A DNA stretch of 31,777 nucleotides from Vicinamibacteria bacterium (GCA_036556645.1 DATBIZ010000404.1:1-31777); one strand, 5' to 3'; shown: positions 16,794 to 28,710, numbered from the stretch's first letter. Numbers and translations: made by a program. The notes: generated by a model not told the origin, from the sequence alone.

Positions 16794-18227
16794 ATGCCCG
16801 ATCTCCAACCGGCGGTCCCGCTGCCGGCGGCAGCCGTGCCGGCGCCGCGGGCGGCCGCCGCCGCCGCCGAGCCGCAGCTCGTGCGCCGGCTCGGGGCATG
16901 GGACGGCGCGCTGATCACGATCGGGTCCGTGCTCGGCACCGGCATCTTCATCACCACCGGCGACATGGCCCGCGTGTTGCCCAGCCCGGCGCTGATCCTG
17001 CTCGCCTGGGTGCTGGGCGGGCTGGTCACGCTGGCCGGCGCGCTGACCCTGGCCGAGCTGGGCGCGATGTTCCCGCGGGCCGGCGGCCAGTACCAGTACC
17101 TGAAGGAAGCCTACGGGCCGCTGTGGGGCTTCCTCTTCGGCTGGACCTGCTTCTTCGTGATCATGACCGGCGGCATCGCCACGCTCGCGGTCGGCTTCGG
17201 CGAGTACCTGGGCTCGTTCCTGCCCTTCTTCTCGACCCGCAACCTGCTGCTGGCGACGCCGGTCGGGCCCTGGACGTGGACGGTCAGCGGAGGACAGGTC
17301 GCGGGCGCGCTCGCCATCGTGTTCCTCACCGCCGTCAACTACCTCGGCCTGCGCGAGGGCACGTTCGTGCAGAACGCGGTCACGGTGGTGAAGATCGGCT
17401 CGATCGTGGCGCTGGCGGTGCTCGGGCTGCTGGTCCCCGCGCCCGTGGCCGACCCGTTCGCGGCCGCCCCGCTCGCGTCGGGCGGGCTGCTCGGCGCGTT
17501 CGGCGTGGCCATGATCGCGGTGATCTGGAGCTACGACGGCTGGTACGGGTTCGCCTTCCTGGCCGGCGAGGTGAAGCGCCCGGAGCGGAACGTGCCGCTG
17601 GGCCTGATCACGGGCACCGCCGCCATCACCGTCCTCTACCTGCTCACCAACCTCGTCTACGTGCGGGCGCTGCCGGTGCAGGCGATGGCGGAAACGGGCC
17701 GCATCGGCGAGGCGGCGGCGGTGGTGCTGTTCGGGCCCGCCGCGGCGCGGCTGGTGTCGCTCGCGGTCGTGATCTCGACGTTCGGCTGCATCTCCGCGAC
17801 CGTGCTGTACGCGGCGCGCGGCTACCTGCCCATGGCGCAGGACGGTCTCTTCTTCCGCAGCCTCTCCCGCATCCACCCGCGCTACCGCACGCCGGCGGCG
17901 TGCCTGATCGCGCAGGGCGCCTGGGCCGCGGCGCTGACCTTCACGGGGACGTACGAGCAGCTCTACACCTACGTCGTCTTCGCGCTGTTCCTCTTCCACG
18001 CGCTGACGGGCGCGGCCGTGATCGTGCTCCGCCGCACCCGGCCCGACGCGCCGCGGCCGTACCGGACCTGGGGCTACCCGGCGGTGCCGCTGCTGTTCGT
18101 GCTGGCCGCCGCCGCGCTCCTCGTGAACACCCTGGTCGAGAAGCCGCTCGAGTCGCTGCTGGGCCTGTTCCTGGTGGCGCTCGGCATCCCCGCGTACCTG
18201 TGGTGGCGGCGGAAGGGGCAAGCGTGA
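16794..18227 (+). CDS. APC-family amino acid permease
   Basis: 477 aa, about 12 TM. GSVLGTGIF, AELGAMFPRAGGQY, SYDGW, AGEVKRPERN, YRTPA, RPYRTWGYP. Confidence 0.95.
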   Translation: MPDLQPAVPLPAAAVPAPRAAAAAAEPQLVRRLGAWDGALITIGSVLGTGIFITTGDMARVLPSPALILLAWVLGGLVTLAGALTLAELGAMFPRAGGQYQYLKEAYGPLWGFLFGWTCFFVIMTGGIATLAVGFGEYLGSFLPFFSTRNLLLATPVGPWTWTVSGGQVAGALAIVFLTAVNYLGLREGTFVQNAVTVVKIGSIVALAVLGLLVPAPVADPFAAAPLASGGLLGAFGVAMIAVIWSYDGWYGFAFLAGEVKRPERNVPLGLITGTAAITVLYLLTNLVYVRALPVQAMAETGRIGEAAAVVLFGPAAARLVSLAVVISTFGCISATVLYAARGYLPMAQDGLFFRSLSRIHPRYRTPAACLIAQGAWAAALTFTGTYEQLYTYVVFALFLFHALTGAAVIVLRRTRPDAPRPYRTWGYPAVPLLFVLAAAALLVNTLVEKPLESLLGLFLVALGIPAYLWWRRKGQA

Positions 18228-20353
18228 GCCGCGCGCCGGCCGCTGCGCTGGCCCTCGCCCTGGCCGCGGCGGGCGCGCCGGCGGGACCGCCCGGGCCGTC
18301 CGGGTTCACGGCCGAGGCGGCCGCCCGCGAGCAGGCGGCGGAGGCGCGGCTGTTCGCGCTGGCCGAGCCGGAGCGCTGCGAGGCGCACCATCGCGAGCTG
18401 ACGCGCGCGCCGCACGTGGCCGGCACCGAAGGCGCGGAGCGCGTGGGGCGATACGTCGCGGACCGGTTCCGCGAGTACGGCCTCGAGACCGAGGTCGTGA
18501 CCTACGACGTGCTGCTGGCCTCGCCGCGCTCGATCGTGGTGGAGCTGCTCGCCCCCACGCACGCCCGCCTGGCCACGCGCGAGGACCCCCTGCCGGAGGA
18601 CCCGCAGACCGCCGACCCGTCCGCGAGCGGGCCCTGGCACGCCTACGCGAAGAGCGGCGACGTGACCGCGGACGTCGTCTACGTGAACTACGGGCGCGCC
18701 GAGGACTACGACACGCTCCGCCGGCTGGGGGTGGACGTGCGCGGGCGCATCGTGCTGGCGCGGCACTTCAAGGGCTACCGCGGCGGCAAGAGCCTGGAGG
18801 CGGAGAAGCGGGGCGCGGCCGCGCTCGTGACCTACTCCGATCCCGCCGAGGACGGATACGTCCAGGGCGACGTCTACCCCCGCGGGCCCTGGGGTCCCGA
18901 CAGCCACGTGCAGCGCGGCGGCAACGTCTACGACTTCCTCGTGCCCGGCGACCCGCTGACGCCGGGATGGGCGTCCGTGGACGGCGCGCGGCGCATCCCC
19001 GAGGCCGAGTCCGCGATCCTGCCCAGGATCCCCTCCGTGCCCCTCTCGTTCCGCGACGCGCGCCCGGTGCTCGAGGCGCTGGGCGGTCCCGTCCGCCCGA
19101 GCCTGGACTGGCAGGGCGGCGGACCGTTCACGTACCACGTGGGGCCGGGACCGGCGCGCCTGCGCGTCAACGTGGACGTGCCGCGCGAGGTGCGGCCGAT
19201 CCGCAACGTGATCGGCCGCCTCCGCGGCTCCGACCCCGATCCGCGCGTGGCCGAGCAGGTCGTGCTGCTCTCGAACCACCACGACGCCTGGACGTTCGGC
19301 GGGGTGGACCCCTCGTCGGGGACCGCGACCACGCTCGAGCTGGCGCGCGTGCTCGGGCAGCTCGCGCGCGAGGGGCACCGCCCGCGGCGCACCCTCCTGT
19401 TCGGCGTCTGGGACGCCGAGGAGTTCACGCTCACGGGCTCCACCGAGTGGGGCGAGGAGCACCGCGACCTCCTCGCGCGCACCGCCGTCGCCTGCCTGAA
19501 CGTGGACGCCGCCGCCTCCGGCGACCGGCTCTCCGTGAGCGCGGTGCCGTCGCTGCGGCCGTTCCTGTACGAGGCGGCGCGCGCGGTGGCCGACCCGAAG
19601 GGACGCGGCAGCGTGTACGACGTCTGGAAGGCGGGCGCGGGCGAAAACGTCCGGGGCTACGGCGTGCTCGCCGGCGCGCGCACGGAGGACCCGCCGGTGG
19701 CCATCCTGGGCAGCGGCAGCGACTACACCGTGTTCTTCAACCACGTCGGCGTGCCGTCGGTGGACATGGTCTTCGACGGCCCCTACGGGGTGTACCACTC
19801 GATCTACGACACGCACGAGTGGATGCGGCGGCACGGGGATCCCGGCTTCCGGTACCACGCGGCGATGGCGCGGCTGTGGGGCGTGATGGCGCTCCGGCTC
19901 GCGAACGCGGACGTGCTCCCGTTCGACTACGGCGTCTACGGCCGCGACCTGCTGGCCTACCTCGACGACGTCGAGGCCGTGGCGCGGGAGAAGGGCGTCG
20001 CCCTCGACGTCGCGCCCGCGCGCGCCGCGGCGCGGGATCTGGCCGCGCTGACCGCGCCGGCCCGGGACGCGCCGGCCCGGGACGCGGCGGCCGGCCGGCG
20101 TGCGGCGATCAACCGCGGCTTGATGGCCGCGGAGCGGGCGCTGCTCTCTCCTGGCGGCATTCCCGGCCGCCCGTGGTTCCGGCACCTCGTGTACGCGCCG
20201 CTGCCGACCTACCAGGCCGAGACGCTGCCCGGGGTGCGCGAGGCGGTCCTGGCCGGCGACGCCGCGGTCGCGCGCGGGCAGCTCGAGGTGCTGGCCGCCG
20301 CGATCCGCCGCGCCGCCGCGCTGGCCTCCGGCCGGGAGGCGGTTGGCCCCTAG
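18224..20353 (+). CDS. M28 metallopeptidase, glutamate carboxypeptidase II/PSMA-like (PA and TfR-dimer domains), exported
   Basis: GTG 18224 overlaps the permease stop (GTGA). Signal-like N-terminus; Zn/catalytic motifs NHHDAW, DPSSG, DAEE, LNVD, GSGSDY, YHSIYD; RPWFRHL.YAP. Confidence 0.9.
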   Translation: MSRAPAAALALALAAAGAPAGPPGPSGFTAEAAAREQAAEARLFALAEPERCEAHHRELTRAPHVAGTEGAERVGRYVADRFREYGLETEVVTYDVLLASPRSIVVELLAPTHARLATREDPLPEDPQTADPSASGPWHAYAKSGDVTADVVYVNYGRAEDYDTLRRLGVDVRGRIVLARHFKGYRGGKSLEAEKRGAAALVTYSDPAEDGYVQGDVYPRGPWGPDSHVQRGGNVYDFLVPGDPLTPGWASVDGARRIPEAESAILPRIPSVPLSFRDARPVLEALGGPVRPSLDWQGGGPFTYHVGPGPARLRVNVDVPREVRPIRNVIGRLRGSDPDPRVAEQVVLLSNHHDAWTFGGVDPSSGTATTLELARVLGQLAREGHRPRRTLLFGVWDAEEFTLTGSTEWGEEHRDLLARTAVACLNVDAAASGDRLSVSAVPSLRPFLYEAARAVADPKGRGSVYDVWKAGAGENVRGYGVLAGARTEDPPVAILGSGSDYTVFFNHVGVPSVDMVFDGPYGVYHSIYDTHEWMRRHGDPGFRYHAAMARLWGVMALRLANADVLPFDYGVYGRDLLAYLDDVEAVAREKGVALDVAPARAAARDLAALTAPARDAPARDAAAGRRAAINRGLMAAERALLSPGGIPGRPWFRHLVYAPLPTYQAETLPGVREAVLAGDAAVARGQLEVLAAAIRRAAALASGREAVGP
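20053..20086 (+). repeat. 15-bp tandem duplication (CGCGCCGGCCCGGGA, about 2.3 copies) inside the M28 gene
   Basis: Encodes APARD-APARD-A, in frame. Confidence 0.8.
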
Positions 20354-21170
20354 GGGCGGCGCCCGCGCGCGCTCGGTCCTCCGCACGCGCCTGTGGTCGA
20401 CCGCCTCCACCCTGCTCGCACGCGACACGATGGTCGTGACGAACGCGATCGCGTTCAACTTCCTGCTGTGCCTGTTCCCGCTGCTGCTGGTCGTGCTCGC
20501 TCTCGCCCTGCAGCTTCCCGGCGGCCGCCGGGTCACCGCCGCGGTGCTGCTCGTGCTCGGCGAGCTGATCCCGTTCGAGCGCGAGTCGCTGGCGCGCTCG
20601 CTGCAGACGCTGAGCCGCCTGGCGCGCAGCGTCGAGGCGGTGTCCCTGCTGCTGATCGTGTGGGGCTCCTCCGGCATCTTCATGCCGGTGGAGATGGCGC
20701 TGGGCCGGGCGTGGGGCACGCGGCCGCGGACCTTCCTGAAGAGCCGCCTGCTCGCCTTCGCCATGACCGTGGCCGGCGGCCTGCTCGCCTTCCTCTCGGT
20801 GGCGTTCACGCTGGCCGCGCGCAGCTACCAGCGCGAGTGGCCGCTGATCGCGGAGTACGGCGCGCGCGCCAGCGCGATGTCCATGACCTACCTGCTGTTC
20901 TACATGGTCTATCGGCTCATCCCGTCGCCGCCGGTGGGGGCGCGGGTCGCGCTGAAGGCCGCGCTGTGGGCGGGCACGGCGTGGGAGATCACGAAGTACC
21001 TCTTCGTGGCCAACCTGGCCCGCACCAACCTGCGCGCGCTCTACGGGCCCCTGGCCTTCTCGGTCGCGCTGGTCCTGTGGGCCTACGTGTCGAGCCTGGT
21101 GCTGGTCTTCGGCGCGTTGATGGTCCCCGCCCCGCCCGCGCGGGCGCCGCGGGAGAGGCGGAAGAGCTGA
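20343..21170 (+). CDS. YihY/BrkB-family (virulence factor BrkB) membrane protein
   Basis: AIAFNFLLCLFP, IVWGSSGIF, AWEITKYLF, LYGPLAFSVALVLWAYVSS..LVFGA. Start uncertain (TTG 20343 with GGGAGG, or later). Confidence 0.8.
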   Translation: MAPRGGARARSVLRTRLWSTASTLLARDTMVVTNAIAFNFLLCLFPLLLVVLALALQLPGGRRVTAAVLLVLGELIPFERESLARSLQTLSRLARSVEAVSLLLIVWGSSGIFMPVEMALGRAWGTRPRTFLKSRLLAFAMTVAGGLLAFLSVAFTLAARSYQREWPLIAEYGARASAMSMTYLLFYMVYRLIPSPPVGARVALKAALWAGTAWEITKYLFVANLARTNLRALYGPLAFSVALVLWAYVSSLVLVFGALMVPAPPARAPRERRKS

Positions 21171-21185
21171 CGAACGGTCGCTCCG

Positions 21186-22106
21186 CTAACTTCCGGCCTT
21201 GTACTTCTCGACCAGCGCCTGGTAGCCCTGCGGCTGGTCCGGGTGGCGGTACTGGTACAGCGCGGCGAGCGCCTGCTCGACCTTGTTGCGCGTCTCCGAC
21301 GGGTTGGCGGCGGTGACGGCCAGGAAGCGCGCCCAGCACTGGATCGCGGCGTCCGCCTCCTTGTTGGCCAGGTCCACCGCCGCGGTGGCGTCCGCGGACG
21401 GCGGGTCGGACGTCCGCGCGGCCTCGGGCAGCGCCTGGTACCTGGCCACCGCGTCGTCGTACTTCGACTTGTGCAGCGTGCCGCAGCCGAGCGTGTTGCG
21501 GGCGTTGATCGCCACGTCCCTGGGCGCGAGCGCCGACGACTTCTCGTAGTGCTGCAGCGCCTCGTCCGCCCTGTCCTGCCTGGCGGCCACCAGCGCGAGG
21601 TTCTGGTGGAGCACGGCCAGCACCGCGTCCTTGTTCCACTTGGCGGCGTCCACGCCGACCGGCACCGCGCCCGCCTCGATGCGCTCGATCGCGGTGCGGC
21701 TGAACTCGGCCGCCGCGGCCGCGTTGGCGTCGCCCCCGCCGAGCAGCTCGTTCTGGCGCAGGTTCACCGCCATCCAGTACAGGTAGTTGATGTCGGCCGG
21801 GTCCTGGGCGAGCGCCTCGCGGCCGATGGTCACCATCCCGGCCATGTCCTTCTTCTTTATGGCCTCGTTGAACCGCGCCCAGCGCGCCCCGCCGAGCCAC
21901 TTGGTCAGCGCCTCGGCGTATTGGCCCTTGGGGAACTTCTCCAGATAGGCGCGCGCCAGCTCGGTGGCCTTCGCGGCGTCGCCGGCGGTCTGCGCCGCGT
22001 GGAACGCGGTGTACGCGGTGACCTCCTCGATGTTCGCCTCTTGCTGCGCCCACAGCGGACCGGCCGCGAGCCACGCCGCGGCCAGCATCAGGATCGTCGT
22101 TCTCAT
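21186..22106 (-). CDS. Exported alpha-helical (TPR-like) hypothetical protein
   Basis: 306 aa from ATG 22106 with GAGAGG RBS. Signal peptide MRTTILMLAAAWLAAGPLWA; TPR-like segments (AYLEKFPKGQYA, ALQHYEKSSALAP). Confidence 0.8.
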   Translation of the reverse strand: MRTTILMLAAAWLAAGPLWAQQEANIEEVTAYTAFHAAQTAGDAAKATELARAYLEKFPKGQYAEALTKWLGGARWARFNEAIKKKDMAGMVTIGREALAQDPADINYLYWMAVNLRQNELLGGGDANAAAAAEFSRTAIERIEAGAVPVGVDAAKWNKDAVLAVLHQNLALVAARQDRADEALQHYEKSSALAPRDVAINARNTLGCGTLHKSKYDDAVARYQALPEAARTSDPPSADATAAVDLANKEADAAIQCWARFLAVTAANPSETRNKVEQALAALYQYRHPDQPQGYQALVEKYKAGS

Positions 22107-22241: not shown

Positions 22242-22280
22242 CGCGCGTCGCGCACCCCGCGGGCCGACGACGAGGAGAGC

Positions 22281-23594
22281 ATGGAACCGACGAGCCCTCC
22301 GGGACCGGCGCGTCCCGGGCGCGAGACACGGCTGCTGGCCCTCACCGTCGTGGTGTCGGCGCTGGTCCTGCTCGCGCTCTCGCGGTTCCGTTTCCCCGAA
22401 GGCTCCCCGCGCGTCGCGCCAACCCCGCCGGCCGCGCTCGCGCTGGAACAGCTCGCCGCCCGCGCGACCTACGACGAGCTGGCGGCGATCGTGGCGCAGT
22501 TGCAGGCGCAGCTCGCTCGCAGCGTGGTGGCCCTGCCGGTCGAAGACGGGGCCGCCGCCGCGGCGCAGCAGATGCCGGCGCGTCCCGGCTTCGTGCCGGG
22601 ACTGCGCGTCGCCGCCGATCGCGCGCTGGCGCTCCTTCCGCGGGGCGCGCGCCTGCAGGGGCCGGCCGCCGCCGCCGCCGTGATCGATACCGTGCACCGC
22701 CTCGCCGTGCTGCCGGTAGCGGCGGACGCCGAGGCGCTGAGGTGGGGCGGCGAGGCGGGCGACCCGGCGCTGGGTCCGCGCTACGTGATCGCGGTCGAGG
22801 GGGGACGGGCGGGAGCGGCGTTCCGGCCGGTCTTCCTCCCCCGCGCCGACGCCGCGCACGACCCGCACTGGGGCGGCGAGGTGCTGGTGCTCGGCGGAGC
22901 GGTGCAGGTGCAGCCCGGGGCGCTGCTCTTCACGCTGCGCGGCCGGTTCCTCGGCCTCGCCATCGCCGATCACGGCTACCCCGCGATCGTGCCGACCGAG
23001 ACGCTCATGCGGGCGTCGGCGGCCCTCCTGGCCGGGCAGGCGCCGGCTCCCGTGGACCTCGGCATCGAGGTGCAGCCCCTCGACGACGCGCTCGCGCGGG
23101 CGGCCAACGTCCGCCGCGGACTGCTCGTCACCGCCGTGCATCCGAATGGCCCGGCGGCGGGCCGCTTGCAGTTCTCCGACGTGATCCAGGCGTCGGACGG
23201 CCAGCCCGTGGATTCCGAGGAGGCGCTCCTCGCCGCGGCGCGGCGTGCGCGTCCGGACCAGCCGCTTCGGTTGACCGTCGCGCGGCGGGGCGACACGCGC
23301 GAGGTCGCGCTGCTGCCGGTGCGCGGCCCGGTGCCCTCGACGCCGGGGGAGCCGGGCCTCGAGTTGCGCGCGCTCGCGAGCGGTGGGGCCGAAGTGGTGC
23401 GGGTGTTCCCCTCGAGCCCGGCGGCGCGCGCGGGACTGCGGCCCGGGGACGTCGTCGTGCATGCGGGCGACCAGCGGACGGCCACGCCCTCCCAGATCCG
23501 GCGCGCGTTCGCGGAGGCCCCCGCGGGAGGAGCGATCCTGTTAGCGATCGACCGCGGCGGCACGTGGATCGCGCTCGCGCTGGTGAAGGAATGA
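22281..23594 (+). CDS. Membrane-anchored HtrA/DegP-like protein with a degenerate protease domain and two PDZ domains
   Basis: 437 aa. N-terminal TM helix, trypsin-like segment lacking GNSGG, two PDZ-like domains (LLVTAVHPNGPAAG; VVRVFPSSPAARAGLRPGDVV). Confidence 0.75.
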   Translation: MEPTSPPGPARPGRETRLLALTVVVSALVLLALSRFRFPEGSPRVAPTPPAALALEQLAARATYDELAAIVAQLQAQLARSVVALPVEDGAAAAAQQMPARPGFVPGLRVAADRALALLPRGARLQGPAAAAAVIDTVHRLAVLPVAADAEALRWGGEAGDPALGPRYVIAVEGGRAGAAFRPVFLPRADAAHDPHWGGEVLVLGGAVQVQPGALLFTLRGRFLGLAIADHGYPAIVPTETLMRASAALLAGQAPAPVDLGIEVQPLDDALARAANVRRGLLVTAVHPNGPAAGRLQFSDVIQASDGQPVDSEEALLAAARRARPDQPLRLTVARRGDTREVALLPVRGPVPSTPGEPGLELRALASGGAEVVRVFPSSPAARAGLRPGDVVVHAGDQRTATPSQIRRAFAEAPAGGAILLAIDRGGTWIALALVKE

Positions 23595-24757
23595 GGCGCT
23601 ACGACTCGAGCGAGGTCGGCGGCCCCGACATCCTCGACGTCGAGGTCGCCGCCTCGCCGCGCGCCGGCGCCCTGGCCCGCCTCCGGACGCGGGCGGCGCT
23701 GGGCCTGGAGCCGGCGCTCGCGCCCGCGGTCGTGTTCGTGCCGCTGGGCGTGCTGCTCGGCCCCCTGGTGCTCGGCATCGTGTCCGAGGAGGTGCTCGCG
23801 CACCTCGATACGGTGGTCTCGATCGCGCTGGCCGCGCTCGGCGTGTTCGTGGGCGTCGCGGTGGACCTGCGCGACCGCACCAGCCGGCGCACGCTCGTCG
23901 CCGCCAGCGTGGAGGCGCTGGTCACGATCGCGGTCGTGCTGGGGGCGGCGCTGATCCTCTTCGCGGCGTGGGGCCTTCGCCTGGACGCGAATCCCTGGTC
24001 GGTGGCGCTGATCCTCGGGATCTCCGCCTCCGCTTCGTCCGCCGGCGCCGTGGACGACGGGGCCGCCGGCGCGGACCGCGCGGCGGCCGCCATCGCGAAC
24101 CTCGACGACGTGCTGCCGCTGCTGCTGGGCGGCGTGGCCCTGGCCTGGGGCGCCGGCCAGCCGCCGCTCTGGGCCGTGGTGAGCGCGGTTCACACCGTGC
24201 TGCTCGGCGCGGGGGTGGCGGCCGCGGGCTGGCTGCTGTTCGAGCGTGCGCACGGCGCCGCGGAGCGCGCGGTGTTCGTGGTCGGCACCGTGGTGCTGCT
24301 CGGCGGCGTGGCCGCCTACCTTGCACTGTCCCCGATGCTGGCCGGGCTGGCGGCCGGGGTGTTCTGGACGTCCGCGCCCGGCCGCGCGGAGAAGGTCATC
24401 CGGGACGACCTGGGCAAGATCCAGCACGCGCTGGTCGTGCTGCTGCTGGTCACGGCGGGCGCGAGCCTGGTGTGGACCCCGATCGCGCTGTGGCTGTTCG
24501 CGCCGTTCGTGGTCTTCCGGCTGGCTGGAAAGCTGATCGGAGGATCGCTGGCGGCCTGGCTCGTCCCGCACGTGGCCCCGGCCGATCTGGGCTCGCACCT
24601 GATCGCCCCCGGCGTCCTCGGCCTGGCGTTCGCGTTGAACTTCCAGCAGGTCGCCCCCTCCGCCACCGCGGCCGCCGTGCTGGCCGCGGCGACCGCCGGC
24701 TCGCTCGCCTGCGAGGTGCTCGGCGTCTGGGCCCGGCCGCGCCCGGCCCGCGGCTGA
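23591..24757 (+). CDS. Cation:proton antiporter (CPA2-like), subunit A
   Basis: 388 aa from ATG 23591 (ATGA overlap). Many TM helices, SASASS and NLDDV motifs, FRLAGK. Confidence 0.75.
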   Translation: MRRYDSSEVGGPDILDVEVAASPRAGALARLRTRAALGLEPALAPAVVFVPLGVLLGPLVLGIVSEEVLAHLDTVVSIALAALGVFVGVAVDLRDRTSRRTLVAASVEALVTIAVVLGAALILFAAWGLRLDANPWSVALILGISASASSAGAVDDGAAGADRAAAAIANLDDVLPLLLGGVALAWGAGQPPLWAVVSAVHTVLLGAGVAAAGWLLFERAHGAAERAVFVVGTVVLLGGVAAYLALSPMLAGLAAGVFWTSAPGRAEKVIRDDLGKIQHALVVLLLVTAGASLVWTPIALWLFAPFVVFRLAGKLIGGSLAAWLVPHVAPADLGSHLIAPGVLGLAFALNFQQVAPSATAAAVLAAATAGSLACEVLGVWARPRPARG

Positions 24758-26067
24758 TGGGCCGCGCCGCCGCCGTCGCGCTGGTCTTCCTGGTGATGGT
24801 GTGGGTCCGCCGCGCGGCTCCGGAGGGCGCGGAGACGCGCGGCGCCGCCCTCGCGCTCGGCTTCGCGCTGATCGCGGCGGCGGTGACCGGCGCGCTGTTC
24901 GAGCGCGCGCGGCTGCCGCGCATCAGCGGCTACCTGCTGTTCGGGCTCGCCTGCGGCCCCTACGTGGCGGACCTCATCTCGCGGCCGATGGCGCGGTCGC
25001 TGCAGCTCGTGAACGGTTTGGCCATCGCCTTGATCGCGTTCGTGGCCGGGCTGGAGATGAACCTGCTGCGCCTGCGCCCGCAGTGGCGGGCCATCCTGCG
25101 GCTGGGGGGCGTCACCCTCGCCTTCGTGTACGCGGTGATCTTCGCGGTGCTGTGGGCGGCGTGGCCGCTGCTGCCCATCTGGCCGGAGGCCACCGGCCTG
25201 CCGCGACTGGCCGTGTCCGCCCTGGCCACGACCGTGGTCGTGAGCTTCTCGCCGACGGTCACGATCGCGGTGATCGCGGAGAGCCGCGCGCGCGGGCGCC
25301 TCACCTCGCTGGTGCTGGCGCTGGTGGTGATCACGGACCTGGCCTTGATCCTGTTGTTCACCCTGGCCATGCAGTTCGCGCGGTGGGCCCTGGGGGGAAC
25401 CGCGGCCGAGGAGGTCGCTCTCGGGGCGCGCCTGGCCTGGGAGATCCTCGGCTCGTTCGCGTTCGGCGCCATCGTGGGCGCGGCCTTCGCGGTGTACCTG
25501 CGCCTGGTCGGCCGCGAGCTGACCGTGGTGCTGCTCGCGGTGTGCGGGCTGCTGAGCGTGCTCGGCGACCGCCTGCACTTCGAGCCGCTGCTGGCCGCGC
25601 TGGCCGCCGGGCTCGTGGTCGAGAACGTCGCCCCGCCGAGCGGGGATGCGCTCAAGGACGCGGTGGAGCGCGGCGCGCTGCCCGTCCTGATCCTGTTCTT
25701 CGCGGCGGCCGGCGCCTCCATGCACGTGGACGCGCTGGCCACGGTCGGTCTGGTCGCGCTCGCCGTCTCCGCGGTGCGGATGGCCGCGGTGCGGGCGGGC
25801 GTGGCACTGGGCAGCCGGGCGGCCGGCCTCTCCCCGCCGTTGAGCCGCCTGGTCTGGATGGGGCTGGTCTCGCAGGCCGGGGTGACGCTCGGGCTCACGA
25901 TCCTGGTGGCGGCGGAGTTCGCGGACTGGGGCGCCACGCTGCAGACGCTGATGGTCGCGCTGATCGCGCTGCACGAGCTGATCGGACCGATCCTGTTCCG
26001 CACCGCGCTCGCGCGCGCGGGCGAGATCGGACGGATGGACGCGCCGGAGGAGGCCGCGCCGGCCTAG
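24757..26067 (+). CDS. Cation:proton antiporter (CPA2-like), subunit B
   Basis: 436 aa from ATG 24757 (TGATG overlap). LPRISGYLLFG...GP, AFVAGLE, SFSPTV, ITDL, SQAGVTLGL, HELIGP...ALARAGE. Confidence 0.85.
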   Translation: MGRAAAVALVFLVMVWVRRAAPEGAETRGAALALGFALIAAAVTGALFERARLPRISGYLLFGLACGPYVADLISRPMARSLQLVNGLAIALIAFVAGLEMNLLRLRPQWRAILRLGGVTLAFVYAVIFAVLWAAWPLLPIWPEATGLPRLAVSALATTVVVSFSPTVTIAVIAESRARGRLTSLVLALVVITDLALILLFTLAMQFARWALGGTAAEEVALGARLAWEILGSFAFGAIVGAAFAVYLRLVGRELTVVLLAVCGLLSVLGDRLHFEPLLAALAAGLVVENVAPPSGDALKDAVERGALPVLILFFAAAGASMHVDALATVGLVALAVSAVRMAAVRAGVALGSRAAGLSPPLSRLVWMGLVSQAGVTLGLTILVAAEFADWGATLQTLMVALIALHELIGPILFRTALARAGEIGRMDAPEEAAPA

Positions 26068-26074
26068 CCTAACC

Positions 26075-27169
26075 CTAGCCGGCCCCGCCCGAACGTTCGC
26101 CGAGGCCCTTGGCCAGCTCCACCGCCAGGAACGGGTTGCGCAGCATCACCGCGCGCAGCGCGGTGCCGTCCAGCGCGAGAAGCTCCGCGTCCTCCACGAC
26201 GCGGGCCGAGTGGTTGCGCGGTTCGCCGACCAGCGCGCTGGTGACCCCGAAATGCCCGCCCGCGCGCACGGACGTCTTCGCGCCGCCCGGGGTGACCAGC
26301 TCCACCGTTCCGGCGCGCAGGACGTACAGGCGGTCGCCGGGGTCGCCCACCCGGTAGATGGCCTCGCCCGCGCGGGACTTCGCGAAGCGCGCGCCCACCG
26401 CGAGGTCGGCCAGGTCCCCGCGGGAGATGCCGGAGAACAGGCCGACCAGCGCGAGCGCCTCCACCGCGTCGGGCTCCTGCTCGCCCTGGCCGCCGGGGCG
26501 GGTGGAGGTCACGAACTGCAGCACCTCCGGCAGGTCGGGCCGGTGCGCGGCCAGGATCACGTTCGCGCCCGCGTCGATCACCGTGCTGCCCTCGGTGACG
26601 GCGACCTCGCCCATCTGCGACTCCACCGCGATGAACACGCAGTTGCGGGGGAACCCCGGCCGCCGCACGATCTCGGAGACCTTCAGCCCCGCCACCGGCG
26701 AGCCGGCCGGGATGCGCACGTCGAAGGCGACGATGTCGTGCCGGCCCACCTGCATCAGGGCGCCGATGGCCGGGAACTCGATCGAGGTGAGGAAGGAGCT
26801 GACCAGGATGTCGGCCTCGCTGTGGATCTTGGTGGCGCCGACCAGCCGGTAGGGGACCTCGTATTGGGGGTTGAGCATGCGGGCGAGCACGCGCGGCACG
26901 CCGTAGTAGCGGGCGAGCAGGCAGAAGGCGAGGTTGTCCGCGTCGCGGCCCATCATCGCCACCGCCACGTCCGCGCGCTTGATCCCGGCGCGCTCGAGCA
27001 CGTCCATGTCCGTGGCGCTGCCGGTGGACACCACCACGCCCTGCTCCTCGAAGATGCGGTCCGTCACCTCGCGCGAGACGTCGATGACGACGGTGTCGTG
27101 GCCGTGCGCGACCAGGCGCGTGACCAGGTGCGTGCCCATGTGCCCGGCCCCCGCCACCACCACGTACAC
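26075..27169 (-). CDS. TrkA/KtrA-like RCK_N-RCK_C protein fused to a C-terminal cyclic-nucleotide-binding domain
   Basis: 364 aa from GTG 27169, 2 nt after the CPA1 stop. GAGHMG Rossmann motif, VVID, GSATD..LERAGI..AD, DADNL, RCK_C (IPAGSPVAGLKV), then CNBD (IYRVGDPGDRLYVLRAGTV...HFGVTSALVGEPRNHSARVVEDAELLAL). Confidence 0.85.
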   Translation of the reverse strand: MYVVVAGAGHMGTHLVTRLVAHGHDTVVIDVSREVTDRIFEEQGVVVSTGSATDMDVLERAGIKRADVAVAMMGRDADNLAFCLLARYYGVPRVLARMLNPQYEVPYRLVGATKIHSEADILVSSFLTSIEFPAIGALMQVGRHDIVAFDVRIPAGSPVAGLKVSEIVRRPGFPRNCVFIAVESQMGEVAVTEGSTVIDAGANVILAAHRPDLPEVLQFVTSTRPGGQGEQEPDAVEALALVGLFSGISRGDLADLAVGARFAKSRAGEAIYRVGDPGDRLYVLRAGTVELVTPGGAKTSVRAGGHFGVTSALVGEPRNHSARVVEDAELLALDGTALRAVMLRNPFLAVELAKGLGERSGGAG

Positions 27170-27171
27170 CC

Positions 27172-28710
27172 CTACCCCCTCTCCTCGAGATCGGACAACG
27201 CGGCCAGCGACTCGTCGATGTGGGCGGCGAGCGCCGCTCCGCCCTCGTCGCTCAGGATCCCGGAGCCGACCGCGTCCTGGATCGCGCTCTTCTCCACGGC
27301 GAGGAGCCGGCGGCGGACGGCGCGGGTCTGGCGCTGCTCCTCGCCGGAGTGCGCCACGAGCAGGTCCTGCAGGTGCCGTTCCGAGCGCGCGATCACCCCC
27401 TGGTACGCGGCGCGCAGGCGCTGGAAGAGGCCGAGCGGCACCAGGCCCAGGCGCTGCAGCCGGTCCAGCTCGGCCTGCGCGGCGCGGGCGGCCAGGAGGC
27501 GGCCCTGCTCCTGCTCCAGCCGGCGCGCTTCGGGCGAGCCGGCGACGCCGAGCCAGCGCGCCACCGGCGCCAGCGTCAGGCCCTGCACGGTGAGGGTCAC
27601 CAGCGCGCAGCCGAAGACGACCGCGCGCAGCAGCGGCCGCTCCGGCAGCCATTGGGGCAGGCTCAGCACCAGGGCCATCGAGAGGCTGCCCTTGAGGTTG
27701 CCCCAGACCATCAGGTGCTGCCAGGGCAGGGGCACCGGCGTGCCGCGGCGGTGGAGCAGCGACAGGAACGGGTAGATCGCGGCGGCGCGCCCTGCGGTCA
27801 GCGCCAGCAGCCCCCACCCGATCGCCGGCGCGGCGGCGAGCAGCGTCGCGAACTCGATCTGCAGGCCGACGAGCAGGAACACGACGCTGTTCACCCCGAA
27901 CGCCGCCACCTCCCACACCGAGCGGATCGCCACCTTGCCGGTCGGGGTCACCGCGTCCCAGCCGGCGGCGCGGACGGTGATGCCCGCGGCGACCACGGCC
28001 AGGATCGGCGACGCCCCCAGCGCCTCCGCGATCGCGGACGAGGCGTAGGTCACGATCACCGTGACCATGATCTCCATCAGGTGGTCGTCGATCCGCCGCA
28101 TCACGTGCGAGGCCGCGTAGCCGACCGCGACCCCGACCAGCAGGCCGGCGGCCGTCACCCACACCAGCTCCACGAAGCCGACCGCGGGATCGAAACGGCC
28201 GCGCTGGATCACCGCCAGCACGGTCGTGAACGCGACCAGGGCGGTGCCGTCGTTGAAGAGGCTCTCGTTCTCGACGATGGTGGCCAGCCGCGGCGGCACG
28301 CGGACCTTCCGGAACCCCGCGATCACCGCGATGGTGTCGGTGGTGGCGAGGATGCAGCCGAGGAGCAGGGCCACGCCCCAGTCCAGGCCGAGCCCCGCGC
28401 GCACGACCGCGCCGGTGACGAACACGGTGGCGAGCATGCCCGGCACCGCCAGCAGCACCACCGGGGCCAGGTTGTCGCGCAGGCGGGCCAGGTCGGTGGA
28501 GAGCGCGGCTTCGAAGAGCAGGATCGGCAGCAGCACGCGCAGCACGACGTCGGCGTCCAGGGCCACGTGCGGCACGAGCTGCGACGCGCCGAGCGCCACG
28601 CCGGCCAGCACCAGCGCGATGTTGTAGTGGATGCGCAGGCGCTTCGCGGCGAGGGCCACCACCGCGGCCACCAGCAGCAGCTCGACGACGACGGTGATCT
28701 CCCCGTGCAT
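27172..28710 (-). CDS. CPA1-family Na+(K+)/H+ antiporter (NhaP-like)
   Basis: 512 aa. LLPILLFEAA, TDTIAV, ENESLFNDG (CPA1 ESxxND motif), WEVAAF..NS..FLLVGL, soluble helical C-terminal tail. Confidence 0.92.
   Translation of the reverse strand: MHGEITVVVELLLVAAVVALAAKRLRIHYNIALVLAGVALGASQLVPHVALDADVVLRVLLPILLFEAALSTDLARLRDNLAPVVLLAVPGMLATVFVTGAVVRAGLGLDWGVALLLGCILATTDTIAVIAGFRKVRVPPRLATIVENESLFNDGTALVAFTTVLAVIQRGRFDPAVGFVELVWVTAAGLLVGVAVGYAASHVMRRIDDHLMEIMVTVIVTYASSAIAEALGASPILAVVAAGITVRAAGWDAVTPTGKVAIRSVWEVAAFGVNSVVFLLVGLQIEFATLLAAAPAIGWGLLALTAGRAAAIYPFLSLLHRRGTPVPLPWQHLMVWGNLKGSLSMALVLSLPQWLPERPLLRAVVFGCALVTLTVQGLTLAPVARWLGVAGSPEARRLEQEQGRLLAARAAQAELDRLQRLGLVPLGLFQRLRAAYQGVIARSERHLQDLLVAHSGEEQRQTRAVRRRLLAVEKSAIQDAVGSGILSDEGGAALAAHIDESLAALSDLEERG

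What the first reader, a model, noticed from the sequence alone, without database searches (positions are those of the whole stretch)
22281..26067. Translationally coupled operon: pseudoprotease-PDZ plus two dissimilar CPA2 antiporters (candidate heteromeric, PDZ-regulated exchanger)
Seen: ATGA (23591) and TGATG (24755-24759) overlaps couple all three genes. Subunit A has the DD motif (NLDD, 24104-24109) and a later Lys (FRLAGK) but a long soluble N-terminus. Subunit B has only TD (25333-25338), no equivalent Lys, and HELIGP. Known: characterised CPA antiporters are mostly homodimers, and the DD+Lys vs xD pattern relates to the transport mechanism in NhaA/NapA-type proteins. Inference: A and B may form an asymmetric heterodimer gated by an envelope-stress-sensing PDZ scaffold. 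I know of no described system like this.
Basis: partly seen in the sequence, partly recalled or inferred. Interest (0 to 1): 0.7.

Follow-up and report, generated by a model that had tools for sequence, protein, structure and literature searches.

The report
Paired antiporter genes with pseudoprotease partner
A soil acidobacterium carries a tightly coupled three-gene unit (an inactive HtrA-like protease with PDZ domains plus two very different Na+/H+-exchanger-fold membrane proteins) that recurs in more than 70 related species, which points to an undescribed two-subunit ion exchanger, probably used in osmotic or drying stress.

Summary
Three + strand genes (22281-23594, 23591-24757, 24757-26067) overlap by ATGA and TGATG.

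- Gene 1 has a DegP/DegQ-like fold with two PDZ domains but no conserved catalytic Ser, Asp or His. It is a membrane-anchored pseudoprotease.
- Gene 2 has no Pfam or NCBIfam match. Its model is an unmistakable NhaA/NapA-type fold (Z about 30), and its family keeps DD, Arg and Lys invariant.
- Gene 3 is a Pfam Na_H_Exchanger with an x-D motif and an invariant Arg.

All three genes lie in this order in 73 of 80 species-level Vicinamibacterales loci, most with 4- or 1-base overlaps. In a class-wide sample, genes 2 and 3 co-occur 17 of 17 times. The gene 2-gene 3 pair, without gene 1, also occurs in other Acidobacteriota classes. In about 20 species gene 3 is fused to trehalose-6-phosphate synthase, and gene 1 then usually lacks its PDZ domains.

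The best reading is a heteromeric cation:proton exchanger with a pseudoprotease accessory subunit, tied to osmoadaptation. The heterodimer, PDZ gating and ion specificity are inferred, not shown. I found no published equivalent. I class it as a new variant of a known kind. Other notes from this scan cover the same stretch of this window; none were found on other DNA.

The parts
22272..22279 (+). Shine-Dalgarno-like GAGGAGAG, one base before the gene 1 ATG
   Evidence: Read directly from the sequence.
22281..23594 (+). Gene 1 (P0001, 437 aa): single-pass membrane-anchored HtrA/DegP-like pseudoprotease with two PDZ domains
   Evidence: Pfam PDZ_2 and PDZ_6. AF2 model pLDDT 87. Foldseek to DegQ/DegP E 3e-19 over about 400 columns. 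Family profile against DegP E 1e-31 to 1e-36.
22314..22397 (+). Gene 1 residues 12-39: RETRLL motif, transmembrane helix, ARFRFP motif. This is the most conserved part of the protein.
   Evidence: Mean conservation is 0.74 here against 0.43-0.47 in the protease-like and PDZ parts. 9 of the 21 invariant or near-invariant columns lie here.
22518..23030 (+). Gene 1 residues about 80-250: trypsin-like beta-barrel domain without a catalytic triad
   Evidence: The DegP Ser210 column is P212 and is variable (P/A/R/S/I). The DegP catalytic Asp column is R140 and is variable (G/R/E). No column has His or Ser conserved as a candidate triad residue.
23055..23309 (+). PDZ domain 1 (residues 259-343)
   Evidence: Pfam PF13180, whole-protein E 8.6e-20.
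23394..23555 (+). PDZ domain 2 (residues 372-425)
   Evidence: Pfam PF17820, E 2.2e-15.
23591..24757 (+). Gene 2 (P0002, 388 aa): 12-helix CPA/NhaA-fold membrane protein of an unannotated family. Its start overlaps the gene 1 stop (ATGA).
   Evidence: No Pfam or NCBIfam hit. AF2 pLDDT 83.5, pTM 0.82. Foldseek NapA 5bz2 E 1.8e-7. VIA-align Z 27-30 over about 340 residues to SOS1, MjNhaP1 and NapA, and Z 21 to NhaA. hhalign to the gene 3 family gives probability 96%, E 1.7e-9.
24104..24109 (+). Gene 2 D172-D173, the helix 5 'DD' position. Aligns with N-D of the window's own NhaP and T-D of gene 3.
   Evidence: Invariant in 30 family members. Register from hhalign.
24518..24532 (+). Gene 2 R310...K314 (FRLAGK), helix 10 basic residues
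   Evidence: Both invariant in A1. In 117 wider family members, R310 is present in 110 and K314 is K in 85 and R in 14.
24757..26067 (+). Gene 3 (P0003, 436 aa): Na_H_Exchanger family protein with 13-14 helices. Its start overlaps the gene 2 stop (TGATG).
   Evidence: Pfam PF00999 E 6.8e-25. TIGR00932 scores 59 bits against a cut-off of 238.
25249..25254 (+). Gene 3 S165-P166, invariant, in the helix 4 break (FSP where CPA1 proteins have TDP)
   Evidence: Alignment A2. Profile alignment to NHE6.
25333..25338 (+). Gene 3 T193-D194, the helix 5 'xD' position
   Evidence: The D is replaced by E in some members of the clade with the sugar-synthase fusion.
25777..25779 (+). Gene 3 R341, invariant helix 10 arginine. 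Aligns with R310 of gene 2; there is no Lys at the K314 position.

Best explanation
The three genes are one operon that makes a membrane complex for monovalent cation:proton exchange.

Shown:
- The genes are translationally coupled and co-inherited.
- Genes 2 and 3 both have the CPA (NhaA/NapA) transporter fold but belong to very different families.
- Each family keeps its own ion-site residues under strong conservation: gene 2 has D172, D173, R310 and K314; gene 3 has S165, P166, D194 and R341.
- Gene 1 is an HtrA-like protein that has lost its catalytic residues. Its best-conserved part is its transmembrane helix.

Inferred:
- All solved CPA transporters work as dimers. These two are made in fixed proportion from overlapping genes and are never found one without the other in the class sample. 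They therefore most likely form a heterodimer, with one protomer carrying an NhaA/NapA-like DD+Lys site and the other a single-carboxylate+Arg site.
- Gene 1 docks to the pair through its conserved membrane helix and presents a probably periplasmic pseudoprotease-PDZ module as a scaffold or sensor.
- The physiological role is probably K+ or Na+/H+ exchange during osmotic or drying stress. In a sister clade gene 3 is fused to trehalose-6-phosphate synthase, and trehalose genes lie beside some relatives.
For: - Overlaps and motifs.
- Synteny: 73 of 80 species loci carry all three genes in order; 4 of the 7 exceptions are cut by contig ends.
- Junctions of -4 or -1: 60 of 76 and 62 of 76.
- Co-occurrence: the 16 genomes of the class sample besides the window's own with gene 2 (E <= 1e-50) are exactly the 16 with a strong gene 3 orthologue (E <= 1e-148). 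The other roughly 26 class genomes have neither.
- In G399 the two genes lie 590 kb apart, yet both are kept.
- The pair persists across large divergence. Relatives below 50% identity (P0200, P0229, P0260) and other classes of the phylum still have a gene 2-like ORF directly upstream of, and overlapping, a gene 3-like gene: 7 of 7 and 8-9 of 14 loci.
- Gene 2 fold. Homology to gene 3.
- Gene 2 lacks the first helices of gene 3 and of NapA/NhaP.
- Gene 1 fold and lost catalytic residues. Its transmembrane helix is the most conserved part.
- Trehalose-6-phosphate synthase (GT20) fusion: Pfam E 1e-108 to 1e-112 in 903-921 aa proteins.
- Trehalose genes next to relatives.
- Habitat is soil and rhizosphere.
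Against: - No physical evidence of a complex. No multimer model could be run and no fusion of genes 2 and 3 was found.
- Co-inheritance and coupling would also fit two separate homodimers that must work together.
- L002 has genes 1 and 2 with no adjacent gene 3. L025/G399 has gene 2 alone at its locus.
- Gene 2 evolves much faster than gene 3. In the wider family its second Asp is kept in only 55 of 117 members, which fits a regulatory rather than transporting subunit in some lineages.
- The helix 4b segment of gene 2 (148-159) is variable in length and poorly modelled.
- The side of the membrane on which the gene 1 domains lie is inferred from homology. The charge count around the helix is nearly balanced.
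- The ion specificity and the stress link are indirect. The window's own gene 3 has no synthase domain, and its genome has a separate OtsA-OtsB gene.
Confidence: 0.5

Rival explanations
1. Two independent homodimeric antiporters with complementary properties are simply co-expressed. One could be an electrogenic DD+Lys Na+(Li+)/H+ exchanger and the other an electroneutral K+/H+ exchanger. Cation and pH balance need both at once, so they stay together. Gene 1 is a separate periplasmic factor.
For: - All characterised CPA proteins are homodimers (established knowledge; review PMC9408914).
- Each family conserves a complete-looking ion site of its own.
- In G399 the two genes are 590 kb apart, and in L002 gene 3 is not adjacent. 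Adjacency is therefore not obligatory.
Against: - Co-occurrence in the class sample is perfect.
- The order and the overlaps are kept over a divergence at which gene 2 is barely recognisable. That is more than co-regulation usually preserves.
- Gene 2 lacks the N-terminal helices that gene 3 and NapA/NhaP have.
Confidence: 0.3
2. Gene 2 is not itself a transporter. It is a degenerate CPA-fold partner (pseudo-transporter) that stabilises, targets or regulates gene 3, which does the exchange.
For: - Gene 2 evolves much faster than gene 3. A1 E-values are 1e-7 to 1e-30 where A2 gives 1e-77 to 1e-104 in the same loci.
- Its helix 4b region varies in length.
- In the wider family the second Asp is often V, A, N or G, and some members lose both Asp and the Lys, such as P0200 and P0229.
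- It has no Pfam match.
Against: - In Vicinamibacterales D172, D173, R310, K314, Q278, H279 and E375 are invariant, and the helix 4 and helix 11 break motifs are conserved. That pattern is as expected for a working ion site.
- D172 and K/R314 are kept in most of the wider family.
Confidence: 0.15
3. Gene 1 is an active protease or quality-control factor that processes the two transporters or envelope proteins, rather than a scaffold.
For: It has an HtrA-like fold with PDZ domains and a DegS-like membrane anchor.
Against: - The columns that align with the DegP catalytic Ser and Asp are variable, and no His is conserved in the domain.
- It is far below the HtrA family cut-off (72 against 416 bits).
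Confidence: 0.03

Closest known systems
NapA (Thermus thermophilus) and NhaA (E. coli), electrogenic CPA2 Na+/H+ antiporters
   Same: Gene 2 shares the fold: NapA Foldseek E 1.8e-7 and Z 27; NhaA Z 21 over its whole 12-helix body. It has two adjacent Asp on helix 5 and a Lys in a G-K-x-x-G context on helix 10. It has no Glu at motif position 5.
   Different: - NapA and NhaA are homodimers encoded by single genes.
- Gene 2 has no detectable Pfam-level similarity.
- It lacks the extra N-terminal helix of NapA.
- Its helix 4b segment is variable.
- It is always paired with a second, different CPA gene.
KefC-KefF, KefB-KefG and KhtSTU (YhaSTU) type CPA2 systems with ancillary subunits
   Same: A CPA2-type exchanger is encoded in an operon with dedicated partner proteins that modulate it (established knowledge). 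KefC also has a single-Asp helix 5 site, and KefC structures are among the fold matches.
   Different: Their partners are soluble cytoplasmic proteins (flavodoxin-like or RCK/KTN). Here the partners are a second CPA-fold membrane protein and a membrane-anchored HtrA-like pseudoprotease.
DegS/DegP/DegQ (HtrA proteases) and PflC of Campylobacter jejuni
   Same: Gene 1 has the protease-PDZ-PDZ architecture and an N-terminal membrane anchor as in DegS. PflC is a published case of an HtrA-like protein that lost its triad and became a structural scaffold (PMC12222027). The PflC scaffold entry 9hmf is among the fold hits.
   Different: Gene 1 lacks conserved Ser, Asp and His. Its partner genes are ion transporters, not outer-membrane-stress signalling or flagellar parts. 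Its transmembrane helix is its most conserved part.
Mrp/Mnh (CPA3) multisubunit antiporters
   Same: A cation:proton antiporter built from several different membrane subunits encoded by one operon (PMC9568556, listed).
   Different: The fold and origin are unrelated (complex I-like), with seven subunits. Here there are two NhaA-fold subunits.
CPA exchangers fused to cytoplasmic regulatory domains (SOS1, SLC9C1, KefC-KTN)
   Same: The relatives of gene 3 with a C-terminal 470-residue cytoplasmic domain follow the same plan of an exchanger body plus a C-terminal soluble domain.
   Different: The fused domain is a metabolic enzyme family (GT20, trehalose-6-phosphate synthase), not a nucleotide-binding or autoinhibitory module. 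I found no paper describing this fusion.

Membership tests
CPA superfamily (NhaA fold): gene 2 | 12-13 helix NhaA fold with broken helices 4 and 11 | tested here: met
   AF2 model pTM 0.82 with breaks at 148-159 and 338-341. Z 27-30 over about 340 residues to SOS1, MjNhaP1, PaNhaP and NapA; Z 21 to NhaA. Foldseek probability 1.00.
CPA superfamily (NhaA fold): gene 2 | Sequence match to Pfam PF00999 Na_H_Exchanger | tested here: not met
   No Pfam or NCBIfam family at E <= 0.1. No PDB sequence hit even with the family profile. Homology shows only in profile-profile comparison with the gene 3 family (probability 96%, E 1.7e-9).
CPA2-type ion site (motif of PMC9408914, section 5.1): gene 2 | X6-D7 on helix 5 is D-D, no Glu at position 5, Lys or Arg at position 8 on helix 10 | tested here: met
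   D172-D173 are invariant, position 5 is I168, and K314 is invariant. The register is supported by two hhalign alignments. It was not checked by structural superposition, and the helix 10 register could be off by one.
Pfam Na_H_Exchanger: gene 3 | Score above the PF00999 gathering cut-off | tested here: met
   88.1 bits against a cut-off of 26.2, covering 39-408.
CPA2 family (TIGR00932): gene 3 | Score above the NCBIfam cut-off, with a canonical D-D or Q-D helix 5 motif and Lys | tested here: not met
   59 bits against a cut-off of 238. Helix 5 is T-D, or A/G/S-D in relatives and x-E in some. Helix 10 has an invariant Arg and no Lys. The best PDB sequence hits of its profile are CPA1 proteins, MjNhaP1 and NHE6, and are weak. 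It lacks the CPA1 Glu at position 5 (L189). It fits neither subfamily cleanly.
HtrA/DegP serine proteases: gene 1 | Trypsin-like domain followed by PDZ domain(s) | tested here: met
   Foldseek E 3e-19 to DegQ/DegP over about 400 columns. Profile against DegP E 1e-31. Two Pfam PDZ domains.
HtrA/DegP serine proteases: gene 1 | Conserved His-Asp-Ser catalytic triad | tested here: not met
   The Ser column is P212 (P/A/R/S/I among 33 sequences). The Asp column is R140 (G/R/E). No conserved His lies in residues 60-254. TIGR02037 scores 72 bits against a cut-off of 416.
Heteromeric CPA exchanger (proposed, no known family) | Physical A-B complex; activity depends on both subunits | not testable with these tools
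   Only indirect support: co-occurrence 17 of 17, and conserved order and overlaps. No multimer prediction was available.
Cation:proton antiport activity (either protein) | Measured Na+, Li+ or K+/H+ exchange | not testable with these tools
   Needs complementation or proteoliposome assays.

The most novel reading that the evidence does not exclude
Genes 2 and 3 form an obligate asymmetric heterodimer of two NhaA-fold protomers with different ion sites (DD+Lys and xD+Arg). That would be the first heteromeric CPA1/2-type exchanger. It is joined in the membrane by a catalytically dead HtrA-PDZ protein that reports on the periplasm. In a sister clade it is hard-wired to trehalose-6-phosphate synthase, so that cation export and compatible-solute synthesis are physically coupled during drying or osmotic stress.
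Probability: 0.3. Interest if true: 0.8.

Novelty: new variant of a known kind. Interest (0 to 1): 0.62.

Why it matters
CPA exchangers, from NhaA and NapA to the human NHE proteins, are studied as homodimers. How the two protomers influence each other, and what sets electrogenic against electroneutral transport, are still open questions (review PMC9408914, outlook section).

A natural, conserved pair of unlike protomers would give a system in which one protomer can be mutated at a time. The pair also defines a protein family of several hundred clusters that current domain libraries leave as 'hypothetical'.

The pseudoprotease partner would be a second example, after PflC, of an HtrA protein recruited as a structural part. 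The fusion of an ion exchanger to trehalose-6-phosphate synthase suggests a direct link between ion balance and compatible-solute synthesis. Vicinamibacteria are abundant soil bacteria whose stress physiology is little known.

Tried and rejected
- Direct sequence comparison found nothing: BLASTP of gene 2 against gene 3 (E 0.73), and phmmer and profile searches of gene 2 against PDB sequences. Only profile-profile and fold comparison showed the relationship.
- I looked for a natural fusion of gene 2 with gene 1 or gene 3. The two long hits, P0150 and P0259, read as chimeric or frameshifted calls, not fusions. P0259 does begin with the end of a gene 1-like PDZ domain, which again shows adjacency.
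- I considered that gene 2 might sit in the membrane in the opposite orientation to gene 3. I rejected this. The Arg-rich N-tail and the Arg-rich loop after the second helix fit the usual orientation with a 12-helix, N-in topology. This comes from reading.
- I considered that the 'DD' might be a register artefact, because in the wider family the first Asp is better kept than the second. Two independent hhalign alignments put D172-D173 on T-D of gene 3 and N-D of the window's NhaP, but the second has low probability. The register is likely but not certain.
- I searched for RNA evidence of co-transcription. Only soil and rhizosphere DNA runs hold the stretch, so I did not lay reads.
- Literature searches for heteromeric CPA exchangers and for antiporter-trehalose synthase fusions found nothing relevant. 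The library is partial, so this is weak evidence of absence.
- The convergent NhaP plus RCK-cNMP operon (26075-28710) is not part of the unit. Flanking genes differ in relatives, for example L001.


Full report
**Observation**

The window is about 74% G+C. Three + strand genes occupy 22281-23594 (P0001, 437 aa), 23591-24757 (P0002, 388 aa) and 24757-26067 (P0003, 436 aa).

The gene 2 ATG overlaps the gene 1 TGA (ATGA at 23591-23594). The gene 3 ATG overlaps the gene 2 TGA (TGATG at 24755-24759). A GAGGAGAG lies one base before the gene 1 ATG.

D172-D173 of gene 2 are 24104-24109, K314 is 24530-24532, and T193-D194 of gene 3 are 25333-25338.

**Gene 1**

Pfam finds only two PDZ domains, at 259-343 and 372-425. 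HtrA family models match far below their cut-offs.

An AF2 model built on 33 homologues (pLDDT 87) matches DegQ and DegP over about 400 columns (Foldseek E 3e-19). The family profile finds DegP-type proteases in the PDB at E 1e-31 to 1e-36, with the alignment running into the protease domain.

- In that alignment the DegP catalytic Ser falls on P212, a column that reads P/A/R/S/I among the 33 sequences.
- The catalytic Asp falls on R140, a column that reads G/R/E.
- No column of residues 60-254 has a conserved His, and none has a Ser conserved as a triad candidate.

It is therefore an HtrA-like pseudoprotease.

Its N-terminus carries one transmembrane helix flanked by RETRLL and ARFRFP motifs. 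This 28-residue stretch is the best-conserved part of the protein (0.74 against 0.43-0.47 elsewhere). That is unusual for a mere anchor and suggests a specific contact inside the membrane.

PflC of Campylobacter is a published precedent for a triad-less HtrA homologue used as a scaffold (PMC12222027).

**Gene 2**

Gene 2 has no Pfam or NCBIfam match and no PDB sequence match, even as a profile. It belongs to a large family of 'hypothetical proteins':

- 578 hits in the 90% clusters, the named ones from Acidobacteriota, Vicinamibacteria or Luteitalea.
- 839 representative clusters at E <= 1e-10.

The AF2 model (pLDDT 83.5, pTM 0.82) is a CPA/NhaA fold:

- Foldseek gives NapA E 1.8e-7.
- VIA-align gives Z 27-30 over about 340 residues to SOS1, MjNhaP1, PaNhaP, SLC9C1 and NapA.
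- VIA-align gives Z 21 to NhaA.

The alignments start at about residue 24 of NapA and the NhaP proteins, but at residue 10 of NhaA. Gene 2 therefore has the 12-helix NhaA complement and lacks the extra first helix.

Profile-profile comparison with the gene 3 family gives probability 96% and E 1.7e-9 over 271 columns.

Thirty family members keep these residues invariant: D172, D173, R310, K314, Q278, H279 and E375, plus glycines in the helix 11 break. The ASASSA motif at the helix 4 break is nearly invariant.

By the eight-position CPA motif summarised in PMC9408914, gene 2 reads as CPA2-like. It has no Glu at position 5 (I168), D-D at positions 6-7 and Lys at position 8.

Two caveats apply. 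The segment after the helix 4 break (148-159) is variable in length and poorly modelled. In the wider family the first Asp (79 D and 9 E of 117) is better kept than the second (55 of 117), while R310 (110) and K/R314 (99) are nearly universal.

**Gene 3**

Gene 3 is a clear Pfam Na_H_Exchanger (E 6.8e-25) but falls below the CPA2 TIGR00932 cut-off.

- Its family has invariant S165-P166 at the helix 4 break, where CPA1 proteins have T-D-P.
- Helix 5 carries x-D, or x-E in some members.
- R341 on helix 10 is invariant and aligns with R310 of gene 2. There is no Lys at the K314 position.
- It has two more N-terminal helices than gene 2.

It fits neither CPA1 nor CPA2 cleanly.

**Conservation of the unit**

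A scan of one genome per species found 80 loci with a gene 2 relative, nearly all labelled Vicinamibacterales or Acidobacteriota.

- 73 of the 80 carry gene 1, gene 2 and gene 3 in that order on one strand. Four of the seven exceptions are cut by contig ends.
- The nearest start to the preceding stop gives a -4 or -1 overlap in 60 of 76 gene 1-gene 2 junctions and in 62 of 76 gene 2-gene 3 junctions.
- Flanking genes differ between loci, as in L001. The three genes are therefore the conserved unit.

In an even sample of 400 genomes of the phylum, 16 genomes of the same class besides the window's own have gene 2. Exactly these 16 have a strong gene 3 orthologue (E <= 1e-148). The other class members have neither. 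One of them, G399, keeps both genes 590 kb apart.

**The pair is older than the trio**

- Relatives of gene 2 below 50% identity still sit directly upstream of a Na_H_Exchanger gene with overlapping ends, with (P0200, P0229) or without (P0260) a PDZ gene upstream.
- In other classes of the phylum, 7 of 7 loci found through a weak gene 2 match have a gene 3-like gene immediately downstream and no gene 1.
- Of 14 loci found through gene 3 alone, 8 or 9 have a divergent gene 2-like ORF directly upstream.

In these loci gene 2 is far more diverged than gene 3 (A1 E-values 1e-7 to 1e-30, against A2 E-values 1e-77 to 1e-104).

**Variants**

- In about 16 species gene 1 is only 255-280 residues (helix plus pseudoprotease domain, no PDZ), and gene 3 is about 903 residues.
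- In four more species gene 1 keeps its PDZ domains and gene 3 is about 918-921 residues.
- The extra 470 residues are a full Glyco_transf_20 domain, the trehalose-6-phosphate synthase family (E 1e-108 to 1e-112).
- One locus (L071) has gene 1 reduced to the helix plus one PDZ domain.
- Trehalose and glycogen genes lie beside two relatives: a TreS-Mak type and a GlgX type gene near the solo gene 2 of G399, and an amylase/TreS-type gene after the P0229 unit.
- The window's own genome has a separate 733-residue OtsA-OtsB type gene on another contig.
- The stretch is found in soil and rhizosphere metagenomes.

**Interpretation**

What is shown is a conserved, translationally coupled unit of two unlike CPA-fold proteins, each with its own conserved ion-site residues. 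In Vicinamibacterales a membrane-anchored pseudoprotease is added.

All solved CPA exchangers are dimers (established knowledge). Overlapping genes give fixed proportions. Neither gene occurs without the other in the class sample. From these I infer a heterodimer, at about even odds.

The main rival is two cooperating homodimers (0.3). Next is a non-transporting gene 2 partner (0.15).

The conserved helix of gene 1 suggests it is a bound accessory subunit. The synthase fusion and the neighbouring trehalose genes point to osmotic or drying stress as the context, but the transported ion is unknown.

**Comparison and novelty**

The parts are known kinds: the NhaA fold, Na_H_Exchanger, and HtrA-PDZ. 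The arrangement is not. Known CPA partners (KefF/G, KhtS/T, RCK domains) are soluble cytoplasmic proteins, and the multisubunit Mrp antiporters have another fold. Searches of the held literature found no heteromeric CPA1/2 exchanger and no exchanger-trehalose synthase fusion, though that library is partial.

I class it as a new variant of a known kind, with interest 0.62. The evidence is wholly computational, and the key claim (a heterodimer) is untested.

Noticed in passing
L035:6179-8890, L037:6179-8890, L065:6134-8890, L075:6059-8824, and about 16 more loci listed: The gene 3 orthologue is a single 903-921 aa ORF: Na_H_Exchanger fused at its cytoplasmic C-terminus to a complete Glyco_transf_20 (trehalose-6-phosphate synthase) domain, Pfam E 1e-108 to 1e-112. 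In most of these species gene 1 has lost both PDZ domains. I found no paper on such a fusion.
   Followed up: partly
window 26075-28710 (- strand): A convergent two-gene unit. It comprises a 512 aa NhaP-type Na_H_Exchanger (Pfam E 3e-65, canonical E-x-x-x-N-D) followed within a few bases by a 361 aa TrkA_N + TrkA_C + cNMP_binding protein. No TrkH/KtrB pore gene is nearby. It is not conserved next to the three-gene unit in relatives.
   Followed up: partly
L025 (G399:C3:2911466-2922614): Here gene 2 stands alone at its locus, and its gene 3 partner is 590 kb away on the same contig. Upstream lie CNNM/CBS, GlgX-type and TreS-Mak-type genes. About 3 kb downstream, a distant HtrA-like PDZ protein (A3 E 5e-21) sits directly before a Voltage_CLC channel gene. 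This may be a second case of an HtrA-like PDZ protein paired with an ion transporter.
   Followed up: partly
L071:4526-4945: Gene 1 is reduced to 140 aa: the conserved N-terminal helix region joined to a single PDZ domain, with the pseudoprotease domain missing.
   Followed up: no
window 23591-23720 (gene 2 residues 1-43): The N-terminal tail is modelled with low confidence but carries a nearly invariant G-G-x-D-x-x-D motif and an Arg-rich R-x-R-A-A-L-G-L segment before the first helix. More distant relatives (P0260, P0261) have an extra transmembrane helix there instead.
   Followed up: no
L105 (G000:C321:701-2902): The window's genome has a separate 733 aa bifunctional-looking gene with a trehalose-6-phosphate synthase domain and a C-terminal extension, on another contig. 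In this species the synthase is not fused to the exchanger.
   Followed up: no
window 18098-22100: Upstream neighbours are an M28 peptidase with PA and transferrin-receptor-like dimerisation domains (18098-20350, +), a BrkB/YihY family membrane protein (20343-21170, +), and a divergently transcribed TPR protein with a signal peptide (21186-22100, -). Downstream of the NhaP unit lie an aldehyde dehydrogenase and a class III aminotransferase.
   Followed up: no
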